Shown here: one piece after another, positions 10,390-61,110 of the stretch | Position numbering within the stretch: position 1 is the stretch's first letter | Layout: each line of letters opens with the position of its first letter | Assembly: GCA_964016885.1 (NCBI GenBank) | Contig: OZ024743.1 | Coordinates: 176,204,001 to 176,268,000 of the forward strand | Origin: Eledone cirrhosa | Taxonomy: Eukaryota | Length of the DNA: 64,000 nucleotides | Direction: 5' to 3' | The notes under the pieces: model-generated | The model's database searches: none | Told to the model about the DNA's origin: nothing | The model's input: only the letters and a program-made list of their open reading frames with translations | Made by a program: the position numbers and the translations under genes

Positions 10390-11169
10390 CGGGAACAATA
10401 TTTCTTTCTCTTTAAATCATAGTTGCGATATAATAGTCTTGGTTTAATTGCGAGCATGTTCTTCTCAGCATCATAATGTTGTGAATTTAATTCCCGGCCT
10501 TACTTTGTGTCCTAGAGTAAGGCATTTTGTTTAATGTTTTTCCAGTTGAATTAGTTGGCAAACATTAAAAGGGCTAGCCATGTCACATAATGTTGCATTG
10601 AATTAAATATCCCTGAGAATTTCATCAGTGTTACTCGTGTGTGTGGAATGTTGAGTCGTTTGCTCATTAATTTTACGAGCAGAAAATTTTCCGTTGTTCG
10701 AAAATCTGGAATACTCGTCGTCGGAACCGACGGAGAACCAACTACTATTACAACAATGTTGAATGTTAGACAGCAGAAGGTAGCTAACAAATAAGTAGAT
10801 CTAAGTTGAAATCAGGAAACAGGAAAAGCTGCGAAGTTAGGGTCTGGGCCGTATATATTCATAAATATATCGTATATGCTTTCATATACAGTTCATTTAC
10901 GAACCACGTTATATCAGTGCTACTACTTACATTATAACTTTTATACTCTGCTATGTATATATATATATATATATATATATATATATATATATATATATAT
11001 ATATATATATATATATATATATATATGTATATATATGCAAAAGTTCTATTTAAAATTGTTGGGATACAACAAGTAAATATTTTTATAACTGATATAAAGC
11101 ACTCGACAAGTATTTGGAGTAGATATACGATATTAATAAATGGAAACTATATTTATAAAACCATATTTA

Positions 11170-11230
11170 TTTCATTATACATATTTCAGGGATACCAAAT
11201 TAAATTATGGTATGCCTTCATCAGACAAAA
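11170..11230 (-). ncRNA. Minimal type I hammerhead ribozyme (left arm of palindrome)
   Basis: Reverse complement of 11371-11431. Confidence 0.8.
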
Positions 11231-11370
11231 CACAATATATAACAGTTTTACAAATAAGCTTTGACGTACCCTTTTAAAATGCAACCATTATTTTTGGAAG
11301 CCATCTGGGGTACGTCAAAGGTACGTCAAAGGTACGTCAAAGCTTATTTGTAAAACTGTTATATATTGTA

Positions 11371-11431
11371 TTTTGTCTGATGAAGGCATACCATAATTTA
11401 ATTTGGTATCCCTGAAATATGTATAATGAAA
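11371..11431 (+). ncRNA. Minimal type I hammerhead ribozyme
   Basis: TTTTGT-CTGATGA-AGGCATACCA...TGGTATCCCT-GAAA-TATGTA-TA^-ATGAAA; stems I and II pair; short helix III; AUA cleavage triplet. Confidence 0.8.
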
Positions 11432-12018
11432 TAAATATGGTTTTATAAATATAGTTTCCATTTATTAATATCGTATATGTATGTATATATATGTATATAT
11501 GTATATATATATATGTATATGTATATGTATATATATGTATATATATATGTATATATATATACATATATATGTATATATGTATATATATATATATATATAT
11601 ATATATATATATATATATGTGTGTATATATATATATATATATGTATATATATATATATATATACATATACAGAGGTATCCACTGTAAGTTGTGGGGTCTA
11701 TTCTGCATGAAGAACTTTGTTTTAACTTATATATATATATATATATATATATATGTATATATATATATCGATATAGGTATCTATATATATGTAAACGATT
11801 AAGTTAAAAATGTACATCTACATATGCATACTGAAATACTAGTGTGTATATGAATACACACACGTATACATATGTAGGTGTAACAAGTCTTTCACTGGTT
11901 GCTTTACTGTGAGCAACTCAGCTATTCTGTATGTAAACACATAGACAAACCGGTTTTTAGAGTCATACTGGTTTTCGGGGGAACACCTTCCCTCTATTCT
12001 CCAGAAAGCCAGACAAGG

Positions 12019-12063
12019 AATATTGAACTAGTTTCGTTGTTGTTACAACTCATCAGCAATATT
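12019..12063 (-). ncRNA. Minimal type I hammerhead ribozyme, copy 1
   Basis: Exact reverse complement of 12813-12857. Confidence 0.9.
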
Positions 12064-12485
12064 TACCTATCTACCGGCCCTTCTGGAGAATTGTAAAAGC
12101 ACATATCGTTATATGCTTTTTCTATGAAAATTAGTAGTGGGCAGACTAATTTGCATAGAGTGTGAGTACGCACCGGTTCAGCGGAGACGATAAAAACAAA
12201 TAACGAAACGAAATTAAATTTCGTTTCGTTTGTAACTCACTTTTGTATGACTGACGCTTAAACAATTAAGTTAAAAATGTACATCTACATATGCATACTG
12301 AAATACTAGTGTGTATATGAATACACACACGTATACATATGTAGGTGTAACAAGTCTTTCACTGGTTGCTTTACTGTGAGCAACTCAGCTATTCTGTATG
12401 TAAACACACAGACAAACCGGTTTTTAGAGTCATACTGGTTTTCGGGGGAACACCTTCCCTCTATTCTCCAGAAAGCCAGACAAGG

Positions 12486-57700: not shown

Positions 57701-58052
57701 AGTGGCAGCCGACCAAAACTCTGTGGTAGTGACAGAGTATAAGTTTCAATAGGTTTCAATACTACCCCTAAATTATGCTTAGACAATAGAATTGACCATC
57801 ATCCGATATATACTGGACGCACGAGTAGAAGGACGTGTGATTTTTTTCCTGCCGGTAGCATATCACAAAATCGAATTTCATCTGAGGATACCGTTCTCAC
57901 AACAGCAACAAATGCATGAATTACATCTTGATTACATGGGAGAACCGTTGAAATAATTAAATAATTATAATGAATAAACGATTATGTAACATCAGCATCT
58001 TTATTAATGTTTTATATATATATATATATATATATATATATATATATATATA

Positions 58053-58646
58053 GGGAAAAAAAGGGTCAGGACCCCGACGGCTGAGCTTCTACCGTTCCGA
58101 AAAAGCTGTCGAAACGGCCGGAGGTCAGTCGTCGGGGTCCTGACCCTTTTCTTATTACGCACTCTACTACCCATATATAACGAAGGAAGTGTGGTAAGGA
58201 ACCAGGTGGACCATAACGCACCAGAGTACTCAATACTTAGTGCAGTAGAGTGGATGATAGGAAAATGTTCAAGACCCCGACGGCAGTCCAGAAATAGTCG
58301 TCGGAACGGCTTCAGCTCTGCCTTGAACACACACACACACACACACACACACACACACACACACACACACACACACACACACATATATATATATATACAT
58401 ATATATATATATATATATATATATATATATATATATATATATATATATATATATATATATATGTGGTAAGGAACCAGATGGACCATAACGCACCAAAGTA
58501 CTTAATACTTAGGGTAGTAGAGTGGATAATAGGAACGAGTAGGACACCGACGGCTGAGCTCAAGCCGTTTCGACGGCTAATTCTGGACTGAGAATTAGCC
58601 GTCGAAACGGCTTGAGCTCAGCCGTCGGGGTCCTACTCGTTCCTAT
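58053..58646. repeat. GC-rich hairpin/palindrome repeat family (also 24505-24680, 38490-38540, 40881-41022)
   Basis: Shared core GACGGCTGAGCTCAAGCCGTTTCGAC / GTCGAAACGGC...AGCCGTCGGGGTCC; near-perfect palindrome at 58529-58646; always adjacent to (TA)n or another microsatellite. Confidence 0.8.
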
Positions 58647-58675
58647 ATATATATATATATATATATATAAAACTA

Positions 58676-58950
58676 GATATAACGCGCATTTAGACACGAT
58701 AGACATAAGAATGCCACCTCACTGGCGGGATACATCTCCTTTTTAAAAAATAATAATACCCCATACAAACTTTTTTGGAGGAAGCTTACTAGATCCACGC
58801 CATACCGACCGCAGAGCGGGAGTTGTGACCTGTGTTTACTAGAATGCCATGCCATAATACACTCTAAACTGAACCTGCTTAACAGAAAATCGGATATTTT
58901 CTCCTCTTGCCAACACAAAATCCTGAGTTCCTTCTTCTATTTTAAACCTA
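58676..58950 (+). mobile_element. Penelope-like GIY-YIG C-terminal fragment
   Basis: With one frameshift reads HKNATSLAGYISFLKNNNTPY...W...PYRPQSGSCDLCLLECHAII...LLNRKSDIFSSCQHK (PLE C-x-LC-x-x-E...LLN-x-x-SE...C-x-H ending). Confidence 0.8.
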
Positions 58951-59349
58951 GCACATAGACGTAATATATATTACGCAACCCCCACCTAGACATACCCCTC
59001 CTTGACTATAACTCCCCCCCCCCAACCCATAACCCAAATAGATAGGTAGCCTATGGGTGGAACAGTCCCCTACAAGGTTTGTGTTTGTGTCTGTGTGTGT
59101 GTGTGTGTATGTGTGTGTGTGTATTCTCCTTTTCTCTCACACACACATACACACATACATATGTATGTATATATGTGTGCATGTGTACATGCATATATAT
59201 GTATATTGTATATATATATATATATGTATATTATATACATATATATTGTATGTGTGTGTATATGTGATATGTATATATGTATGTATATGTGTATATATGT
59301 GTATGTGTGTGTATGATATCTATATATGTGTGTATGTATATATATTTTC

Positions 59350-61110
59350 TCTGTAGAAGTCTTCTCTATATGTGGTGTTCGGCATGAATTCCTCCTATAA
59401 TACTCTTCTTTGAGAGGAGCACGATATGTAGAGTAACACATAGGTATTGTCGAAGTTGAAACTGAGAACCACCACCCCTCCTGCTGACCCAAATGTTTAC
59501 TGAGGACCAGAACACCATTCTCCACAATATAAGAGAGGAATGCGCTTGCCGGACTATTGATGACCATAACATCACATTCCAAGGTAATGGAAAAACACAG
59601 TGAATGGTAAACACGACCAGAACATCACAACATGCACATCGGAGCAACAGAGATATAATATCAATAAGCGAATCAATTGAATTTTTTGAGTTGAAATACA
59701 TATAAATATGTGTCTGTGTGTATCGGACATACGTACACATGAAGAAACTGCTGACCTAAATGTACCTGTCATGCCTGTCTGAATTCCCAAGAAAATTTTC
59801 AGTCAGTTACTATCTTGACCGCTTACCCTCACAATTACTACGTAGCGGTTCTTGCACGTAACTGCTAGACCCGGATGAAACGAAAACGAAGAATTTCCTT
59901 GCGTACCGTTTTGTACCACAGATGCAATCTCACTCTGCCTCGTTAATGTTCAATCGACACCAAAGTTCTACGTTCTGGGCAATAGAATTGAATCCAACCA
60001 CCTACAACATAGTTGGATGACCGATAATCACACCAAACCGGAGTACTGTGATCCTTGTGATTTCTAGATATACAACCACTGATAGTGTAACGAAGACCAG
60101 AAAACCATACTCCATAATATTGAACCAAGTGATTGATTTGAGCGACCAAAATAACACCACACACATATTGGGTCGGCAATGAACTAGGAATACTGGATCC
60201 TCCGTCAATGTCTGGGTGAGCAAAAATAGATTTCTATCTGCATTGAAATTTACGAACTTGTGCATCTGCTGTGGTGTCAAACACAAACGCACACGACCGC
60301 ACAGATGAGCAATGGACTATGCCACGTGGGTTGAACTTGCAAGTGAATTGAAGGATGTGTAACTCTGATATACAGATTATATATTATTAAGATGTATAAA
60401 CTTGACATAACTATTATCATCTTATATTCTCTCAACTAATCACATTTGATTATATTTCTCTATCCCGTTTTCTCCCCCCATATTTATAATATTTTTATTT
60501 GACAAAATCGTTTTTTTTACATTGTGTTTTTCCCTTCTAATACTTGCTTATATCTTTTTAATATATTCTCTATATATTTTTATTTATATATTTTTTATCT
60601 TTATTCTTATTTTCACTCTTATCCTCCTTTATATTTTAACTTATTCTTACTTTTATACCTTATTATAGTGTAATCTTCCCCATGCCTTATTATACATTAT
60701 TAATTACAGATTATTATTATTACTCTTATTCCATTTCTAATTACCTCATGTACTTTCTCCTCCGTTATATATATATTGTATGCCCTTTGTGTGTGTGTAG
60801 CCTCTGCACACCCTCTTCACCCTACTATCGGCGCCACCCTATCTATGGCTCCACTAACCACTCGACTCCCGGGAATGAATATGACCACAGCTAGTAAACA
60901 AGGACCCACATCCCACCCTCCCGCACCAAAATTAGACTTATCGTCTCCTGATTTTGCTCTTTACTCTCTTTACTCTCTGTTCTTGAATGTTTGGTTGGTA
61001 GAGTCCATAACACCAATCAAACCCCTTTTATAGCTCTGAAGAATCCTACGGCTACGTAAGGAAGAAACATTGTAAGCCAATAAAAATCTGTTCATGTTGT
61101 AGACGCGCTT
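59350..61110 (+). mobile_element. Highly decayed Penelope-like element 3' part with pLTR hammerhead
   Basis: PRGLN-type terminus at ~60322-60336, pyrimidine-rich 3' region, hammerhead at 61033, AATAAA at 61079, then (TA)n. Confidence 0.55.
61033..61077 (+). ncRNA. Minimal type I hammerhead ribozyme
   Basis: GCT-CTGAAGA-A-TCCTACG-GCTA-CGTAAGGA-A-GAAA-CATTG-TA^-AGC; GUA triplet. Confidence 0.7.

What the first reader, a model, noticed from the sequence alone, without database searches (positions are those of the whole stretch)
11123..61084. Unusually dense, sequence-diverse population of minimal hammerhead ribozymes
Seen: intact cores at 11170, 11371, 12019, 12486, 12813, 40321 and 40623, plus 61033 (non-canonical A-A at the base of stem II). 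Variant or decayed cores lie at 24220, 27498, 41310 and 56770. Stems differ in sequence but pair, which argues against chance matches. Nearly all lie within a few hundred bp of (TA)n. GIY-YIG remnants at 22300 and 58676 show PLEs are present. Inference: many distinct PLE/retrozyme families have seeded self-cleaving motifs on both strands, which could terminate or process any transcript crossing the locus.
Basis: partly seen in the sequence, partly recalled or inferred. Interest (0 to 1): 0.75.

Follow-up and report, generated by a model that had tools for sequence, protein, structure and literature searches.

The report
Penelope transposon ends carrying hammerhead ribozymes
The ribozyme motifs are really there, but they are the leftover ends of several known-type jumping genes plus one protein-free tandem repeat, at about the density seen all over this genome (an estimated 200,000 or more motifs); whether they cut RNA is untested, and they are likely decaying debris rather than a regulatory system.

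Summary
Observation largely confirmed. All 8 'intact' motifs are real type I hammerheads (8 versus 0.075 in shuffles); a wider descriptor finds 13. They are not independent: the 8 come from 5 insertions, the 13 from 9.

Density is not unusual for this genome. 790 kb of content-blind samples predict 4.4-6.6 motifs per 64 kb (P 0.055-0.15), or about 2-3x10^5 genome-wide from at least 21 families.

Four motif families trace to Hydra-clade Penelope-like elements (PLEs), one probably does, and one traces to a Neptune-like PLE. Both GIY-YIG remnants are Hydra PLEs that end in their own hammerhead. The 12019/12486/12813 trio is one insertion of a 467-nt non-LTR retrozyme (5,212 exact motif copies).

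Insertions end in (TA)n as back-to-back arms, one stopping at a short and one at a long fixed site. In one family, 29 of 30 copies run through the cleavage site and cores decay neutrally. The 'cuts any passing transcript' idea is unsupported. No RNA data were available. This scan has reported the same picture on other DNA of this genome.

The parts
4147..5773 (.).
   Evidence: 97-99% to L087, where the same motif lies 3' of a Hydra-type RT ORF
11037..11472 (.). Back-to-back insertion of a Hydra-clade PLE end; hammerheads at -11224..11176 (long end, about 91-nt tail) and +11377..11425 (short end); stem II with C-C mismatch, stem III AUAUGUAU
   Evidence: 3,491 exact; 8,673 tail matches; ORF in L240, L242
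11792..13153 (.). One insertion of a 467-nt non-LTR retrozyme: 1.64 copies on minus (motifs -12056, -12523) and 1.27 copies on plus (+12820), flanked by (TA)n; ends at monomer positions 228 and 303
   Evidence: (5,212 exact motif copies)
21574..22893 (-).
   Evidence: (83-95% aa to full-length ORF in L106)
24040..24315 (.). Back-to-back insertion; fully paired U4C hammerhead variant at +24226..24281 (short end); minus arm has a broken core (long end); probably Hydra-clade
27498..27525 (-). Minimal hammerhead core without stem I, member of a dispersed family
40321..40378 (+). Intact hammerhead with C-C mismatch in stem II and stem III AUAUGUAU; older family, no parent ORF found
   Evidence: (188 exact 21-mers)
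40540..40764 (-). 3' end of a Neptune-like PLE with a minimal hammerhead at -40654..40627 (extra nucleotide after the core, ACGU stem III)
   Evidence: (3,398 matches)
41170..41360 (.). Back-to-back insertion joined at the 5' strand of stem I; both motifs (-41304, +41310) have a broken stem III pair; parent ORF not found
   Evidence: (1,895 exact)
56600..56634 (-).
56770..56802 (-). Doubtful or decayed core (UUGAUGA, G at the cleavage position, no stem I)
58661..61125 (+). One 2.47-kb 5'-truncated Hydra-clade PLE: GIY-YIG remnant (58686-58946), about 2-kb 3' UTR, pLTR hammerhead at +61036..61074 with family-fixed A-A, then (TA)n
   Evidence: 92.9% over 2,527 columns to L237, which carries the ORF
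62304..62406 (+). Decayed member of a long-stem-II hammerhead family (relatives intact in L036, L093)

Best explanation
The motifs are type I hammerheads at the 3' ends of truncated Penelope-like retrotransposons (mostly Hydra clade) and in one 467-nt tandem retrozyme insertion, and they likely accumulate as dead copies because each copy starts only 25-300 nt downstream of the ribozyme. Shown: family identity, parent ORFs for five families (a sixth probable), (TA)n on the 3' side, back-to-back arms with one short and one long fixed end, read-through of the cleavage site, neutral decay, and genome-typical density. Inferred: the PLE RT/GIY-YIG protein cuts both strands of a (TA)n target and primes reverse transcription from both DNA ends, one at each of two fixed internal sites on an uncleaved RNA; the two cDNAs stop early and are joined head to head. 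For the retrozyme the template is likely a circle read round repeatedly, giving arrays at insertion. The ribozyme likely works only in the element's own cycle (as a dimer or with protein help), not for the host.
For: Motifs versus shuffles. Parent ORFs with the Hydra motifs RWK, DKT, CxCX5C, CxxC/CxH; window stretches align to these elements at 93-99%. One short plus one long end in 5 of 5 window pairs, 11 of 12 pairs of the 11377 family (exception L131/L132) and 9 of 9 resolved retrozyme pairs (seven of those loci were chosen for being back-to-back, not for their ends). Among the first 100 retrozyme matches, 10 of 28 clusters are back-to-back and 0 face-to-face. Retrozyme 5' ends are scattered, arms reach 12+ copies, monomer folds at z = -8.6 as a circle. 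29 of 30 tail-anchored copies contain sequence upstream of the cleavage site. Rare substitutions hit core and non-core alike (3/282 v 17/2030, P 0.73), while subfamilies differ by two compensatory stem II changes and no common core change. In vitro, a lizard PLE protein cuts and extends both strands, starts at two internal sites, uses unprocessed RNA, and its hammerhead needs the protein (PMC11167929).
Against: No parent ORF found for the 40325, 41310, 27525 and 56631 families, nor a donor PLE for the retrozyme. Pfam support for the ORFs is weak (GIY-YIG E 0.003-0.06, below cut-off; no RT hit), so clade assignment rests on motifs, with no tree. PMC11167929 reports no difference in start site between strands in vitro, unlike the one-of-each pattern here. 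The 40654 family shows a single 3' end and 1 inverted arm in 20 loci. Tandem arrays could also grow later by unequal crossing-over. The window is about twice the genome mean (9 insertions v 4.8, P 0.055-0.076). Cleavage and circular RNA are untested.
Confidence: 0.88

Rival explanations
1. The locus is a hot spot in which hammerheads are retained to terminate or process host or read-through transcripts on both strands.
For: 13 motifs in 9 insertions v 4.8 expected, borderline. Both strands are covered. The 4222/5619 and 24226 motifs have 3-5-bp stem III and might fold as monomers; the two same-strand retrozyme copies could dimerise.
Against: Flanking stretches (4 x 10 kb) hold 1 motif each, no local enrichment. 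Neutral decay in the one family tested. Several window copies are broken. Inverted arms are predicted to trap 5 of 13 motifs. Published metazoan minimal motifs show no monomer cleavage and weak dimer cleavage (PMC4209133).
Confidence: 0.05
2. The inverted and duplicated motifs are assembly artefacts (fold-back reads) that inflate the count.
For: The left part of the window has many near-perfect inverted and direct duplications.
Against: The two arms end at different, family-fixed sites in 5 of 5 window pairs and carry private differences, which a fold-back read would not produce; the same architecture recurs at unrelated loci.
Confidence: 0.02
3. The retrozyme arrays are satellite DNA born from one PLE end and expanded in place by unequal crossing-over, without an RNA circle.
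For: This model is discussed in bioRxiv 10.64898/2026.07.22.740005. No RNA holder was available to show a circle.
Against: Thousands of dispersed insertions share two fixed 3' ends and have fractional copy numbers (0.45-12) on both arms, with scattered 5' ends.
Confidence: 0.12

Closest known systems
Minimal type I hammerheads in pLTRs of metazoan PLEs (Cervera and De la Pena 2014, PMC4209133; parts 1-2 of 4 read)
   Same: Type I topology, short palindromic stem III, extra nucleotide after the core, many heterogeneous families per genome, mostly single truncated copies, pairs on opposite strands 100-700 bp apart, U3-A8 core variant also common here.
   Different: Estimated load of 2-3x10^5 motifs (68-100 per Mb) against about 2,000-9,000 minimal motifs per genome in that paper (different descriptors). 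Stem II regions up to 115 nt; fixed A-A, U-U or C-C pairs and U4A/U4C cores.
Hydra clade of C-terminal EN+ PLEs (Craig et al. 2021, PMC8557442; section 11 and passages read)
   Same: Single ORF of about 785 aa, RWK, DKT, CxCX5C linker, CxxC/CxH, C-terminal GIY-YIG, hammerhead in pLTR, (TA)n target, inverted 5'-truncated arm, tail on one end only.
   Different: Described there as a small number of families; here at least four in one window and 41,301 first-look candidates for one endonuclease query. Tails are about 70-95 nt, not 30-40. One family has a 2-kb 3' UTR.
Metazoan non-LTR retrozymes (Cervera and de la Pena 2020, PMC7229834, passages read; bioRxiv 10.64898/2026.07.22.740005, part 1 and passages read)
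   Same: Non-coding tandem units with one type I hammerhead each, low GC (37%), highly self-paired, co-existing with PLEs.
   Different: 467-nt unit, above the 170-400 nt reported. Insertions show PLE-type back-to-back arms and two fixed ends; word searches of both papers for inverted arrangement, tail or target site found no such description. Expression untested.
PAc Poseidon PLE in vitro mechanism (Frangieh et al. 2024, PMC11167929; passages and second half of main text read)
   Same: Both-strand cutting of AT-rich DNA, two internal start sites that define the tail, unprocessed RNA as template.
   Different: In vitro no strand difference in start site; here the two arms of an insertion nearly always use different sites.

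Membership tests
Type I hammerhead ribozyme | Core CUGANGA ... GAAA ... UH with three helices in type I order | tested here: met
   9 exact-core motifs and 4 single-variant motifs; 0 in 20 shuffles. Rfam finds only 3, at 38.6 bits, below the gathering score of 52.
Type I hammerhead ribozyme | Stems maintained by compensatory change | tested here: met
   Two compensatory stem II changes between subfamilies of the 11377 family; no common variant in 11 core columns v 13 of 79 others (one family only).
Type I hammerhead ribozyme | Self-cleavage at the UH site | not testable with these tools
   No assay; no RNA run listed.
Minimal (dimer-type) PLE hammerhead | Short self-complementary stem III | tested here: met
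   ACUAGU, AUAUGUAU, ACGU, AAUU, ACAUUGU, ACAUUUGU self-pair; 4222/5619 and 24226 have longer stem III and are exceptions.
Hydra-clade PLE | RWK and DKT motifs in the RT N-terminal region | tested here: met
   RRVRWKAF and VKADKTSN in L105-L107; RIRWRTF and TSDKTRN in L238.
Hydra-clade PLE | CxCX5C linker, C-terminal GIY-YIG, CxxC and CxH around E and N | tested here: met
   Present in L106, L237, L242, L087 (linker) and the window remnants; Pfam GIY-YIG weak.
Hydra-clade PLE | Hammerhead in pLTR and insertion into (TA)n | tested here: met
Hydra-clade PLE | Placement in the Hydra clade on an RT tree with reference elements | not tested
   No reference sequences were fetched.
Neptune-clade PLE (40654 family) | RT plus CX2-5CxxC linker plus C-terminal GIY-YIG upstream of the motif | tested here: inconclusive
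   ORF in L267 has a Cys-rich linker and GIY-YIG; Neptune v Nematis or Poseidon not resolved; the Neptune label is from the linker description in PMC8557442 and recall.
Non-LTR retrozyme | Non-coding tandem unit with a type I hammerhead in each unit, at least two consecutive units | tested here: met
   467-468-nt period, arrays of 12+ units; no ORF of 120 aa or more inside the insertion.
Non-LTR retrozyme | Expressed as monomeric linear and circular RNA | not testable with these tools
   No RNA holder listed.

The most novel reading that the evidence does not exclude
Every PLE and retrozyme insertion here is made by an asymmetric two-enzyme complex that primes both ends of a cut (TA)n on one uncleaved or circular RNA, one at each of two fixed sites 70-95 nt apart. 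Retrozyme arrays are written in one step by rolling-circle reverse transcription, and many short copies are run-off products that stop at the element's own transcription start (14 of 15 loci of the 41310 family end within 12 nt of the core, about 30 nt below a TATAAATA box). The genome's 2-3x10^5 hammerheads, possibly the densest load reported, would then be a fossil record of RNAs that had not cleaved.
Probability: 0.5. Interest if true: 0.55.

Novelty: new member of a known kind. Interest (0 to 1): 0.3.

Why it matters
The window itself is ordinary for its genome. What carries weight is genome-wide: an estimated 2-3x10^5 hammerhead motifs in at least 21 families that a standard Rfam scan largely misses, and insertion ends that tie a protein-free retrozyme to PLE machinery, a link so far argued mainly from phylogeny and co-occurrence. 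The one-short, one-long rule gives a direct, testable constraint on how PLEs integrate. The family-fixed core and stem II variants are a natural library for hammerhead biochemistry.

Tried and rejected
Rfam scan: only the three retrozyme motifs hit (HH9, below gathering score); the other 144 of 147 rows are other families below their gathering scores, mostly miRNA models on microsatellites. The repeat finder was swamped by microsatellites; self-BLAST was used instead.

First descriptors capped stem II at 45-60 nt and missed 21737. Distance-only clustering merged different families and was replaced by family-aware clustering.

No RNA holder listed. Contigs of four runs of unknown kind showed no listed variant between 12804 and 12885 while flanks varied; this is a weak hint of conservation and no evidence on expression.

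A fixed 5' end for the 41310 family was rejected: longer copies exist. A TATA-linked 5' hot spot was clear only for that family, not for the 11377, 40654, 24226 or 40325 families. The candidate at -17560 passed only the loosest descriptor and was not counted. No shared end hairpin linked the retrozyme to a Hydra family.

Lunse et al. on dimer cleavage was not held and is not used as evidence. Paper searches: hammerhead+octopus+ribozyme, retrozyme/cephalopod/octopus, octopus+Penelope, hammerhead+copies per+Penelope listed no study of cephalopod hammerheads; a 2026 octopus repeat annotation has 0 occurrences of 'ribozyme' in its main text (PMC13282606, passages). Supplements were not read; those of PMC8557442 and PMC4209133 may list related families. 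A host gene across the window was not searched for beyond ORF listing.
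Full report
Verdict: the motifs are real, but the window is an ordinary sample of a genome full of Penelope-like element (PLE) ends. The host looks like an octopod; that label is from my recall of its repeats and from earlier notes of this scan, and was not tested.

1. The observation. Allowing long stem II and single known core variants gives 13 motifs and none in 20 shuffles. Rfam finds only the three retrozyme copies, below gathering score.

2. The motifs are not independent. 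Self-alignment shows 11170/11371, 24220, 41310 and 4222/5619 as inverted pairs, and 12019/12486/12813 as one tandem-plus-inverted block. The eight cores come from five insertions and the 13 from nine.

3. Density. I fetched 79 stretches of 10 kb at positions chosen blind to content (57 of 79 on the four largest contigs, which hold 54% of the assembly). The exact descriptor gives 54 motifs in 790 kb (0-1 in shuffles), or 4.4 per 64 kb; the window's 8 has P = 0.15. The wide descriptor gives 81, or 6.6 per 64 kb; 13 has P = 0.086. Counted as insertions, 9 against 4.8 has P = 0.055-0.076. The four adjacent 10-kb stretches hold one motif each. So the window is at most about twice the mean. Extrapolation gives 2.0x10^5 exact-core motifs (bootstrap 1.25-3.1x10^5) and about 3x10^5 with variants, from at least 21 families. 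Published counts, with other descriptors, are about 2,000-9,000 minimal motifs for schistosome, coelacanth and frog (PMC4209133), about 5,000 for mussel and 126,247 for axolotl (PMC7229834).

4. Parents. The remnant at 22300-22893 matches a family with full-length ORFs of 782-786 aa that carry every Hydra-clade motif listed in PMC8557442 section 11. Its pLTR holds the long-stem-II hammerhead, present in the window at -21737. The remnant at 58676 and the hammerhead at 61033 are the two ends of one 2.47-kb truncated Hydra element, 92.9% identical to L237; its A-A pair is a family trait. The 11170/11371 and 4222/5619 pairs align at 97-99% to Hydra elements L242 and L087. The 24226 family is probably Hydra (endonuclease hit about 1.3 kb upstream in L228, E 7e-7). 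The 40623 family lies 3' of a Neptune-like ORF in 4 of 20 long copies. No ORF was found for 40321, 41310, 27498 or 56631. Exact-pattern counts: 5,212; 3,491; 3,398; 1,895; 188; 42.

5. The retrozyme. The 11792-13153 block is a 467-nt non-coding unit, 37% GC, 67% paired as a circle, z = -8.6. Elsewhere it forms arrays of 12 or more units per arm. Among the first 100 matches, 10 of 28 clusters are back-to-back and none face-to-face. In 21 loci (two duplicated), 3' ends fall at unit positions 228-234 or 302-304 next to (TA)n wherever they were cleanly mapped, and 5' ends are scattered. All 9 two-armed insertions with both ends resolved use one end of each kind; four more were unresolved.

6. The same rule in PLE ends. 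(TA)n lies within 300 bp of 91% of 56 sampled motifs against 27% of background, on the 3' side at two family-specific distances. All five window pairs have one short and one long arm, as do 11 of 12 pairs of the 11377 family. Tails are about 70-95 nt, longer than the 30-40 bp in PMC8557442 and PMC11167929. This fits the in vitro finding that a PLE protein cuts and extends both strands from two internal sites, although that study saw no strand difference in site use.

7. Are the motifs cutting? Untested. Indirect evidence points to little host role. Of 30 copies picked by a pattern 13 nt downstream of the cleavage site, 29 contain upstream sequence and one ends about at the site, so templates were intact or re-ligated there; PMC11167929 likewise found unprocessed RNA to be the main substrate. 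In 26 of those copies (four dropped because their 5' ends fall inside the aligned span), rare substitutions hit core and other positions equally (3/282 v 17/2030), while subfamily changes are compensatory and spare the core. Selection therefore appears to act in the replicating lineage and not after insertion. Folding predicts a 0.5-8.5 kcal/mol cost for the active fold in isolation and 66-91 kcal/mol for five motifs whose inverted arm lies within 400 nt (tertiary contacts not modelled). No RNA run was listed.

8. A side result. In the 41310 family, 14 of 15 loci (13 distinct insertions) end within 12 nt upstream of the core, about 30 nt below a TATAAATA box seen in longer copies. These may be run-off copies of the pLTR transcript's 5' end. 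The other four families tested show broader 5' ends.

9. Novelty. Minimal hammerheads in PLE ends, their family diversity, opposite-strand pairs, (TA)n targeting, inverted arms and tails are all published. New are these families, the load in this genome and the one-of-each end rule shared with a retrozyme. My searches listed no paper on cephalopod hammerheads. Earlier unchecked notes of this scan report the same picture on other DNA of this genome; I had reached it before reading them, and they are not independent support. One of their leads, twin hairpins past both ends, held for the 61036 family and partly for three others, but not clearly for the retrozyme. Interest 0.3.

Noticed in passing
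window 29452-38453: Two tandem L1/Tx1-type LINEs (endonuclease, RT, zf-RVT; 75.6% alike) bounded by (ATCT)n tracts, with a third fragment at 63313-63836; suggests microsatellite targeting.
   Followed up: no
window 43703-49751: RT-bearing LINE pieces with a C-terminal endonuclease-like region among (ATT)n and (CTT)n tracts; resembles R4/Dong elements (label recalled).
   Followed up: no
window 241-4150 and 17842-21437: Segmental duplication at 97-99% identity about 17.5 kb apart; also 5836-6561 repeated at 7634-8362.
   Followed up: no
window 41266-41348; L210, L216: Both arms of the 41310 insertion lost the same stem III G by different substitutions, and two other loci are changed at that position too.
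   Followed up: no
L017, L040, L071, L074, L089, L091, L096: An abundant family with the U3-A8 core (UUGAAAA), lying 3' of a Neptune-like ORF in L040.
   Followed up: partly
L021, L048, L265: Three further tandem retrozyme families with periods of 466, 485 and 440 nt.
   Followed up: no
L042, L049, L096, L091, L036: Hammerheads with 83-115-nt stem II regions and palindromic stem III.
   Followed up: no
L275-L301: In all 8 back-to-back pairs of this run on contig C1 (1-22 Mb) the left arm is the short one; other loci show both orders, so it may be chance.
   Followed up: no
window 17490-17568 (-): Possible hammerhead with 8-bp stem I and 6-bp stem III but a bulged stem II; only its 3' flank has relatives among fetched loci.
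   Followed up: partly
window 987-1040, 18592-18645, 56857-57052: Further truncated members of the 41310 family.
   Followed up: partly
window 2463-2633, 6916-7114, 15185-15370, 26595-26773, 28892-29066, 50131-51121, 54527-55307: At least 11 copies of a SINE-like repeat.
   Followed up: no
inverted insertions, e.g. window 11792-13153: Back-to-back arms would give long double-stranded RNA in any read-through transcript, a likely substrate for A-to-I editing (inference).
   Followed up: no
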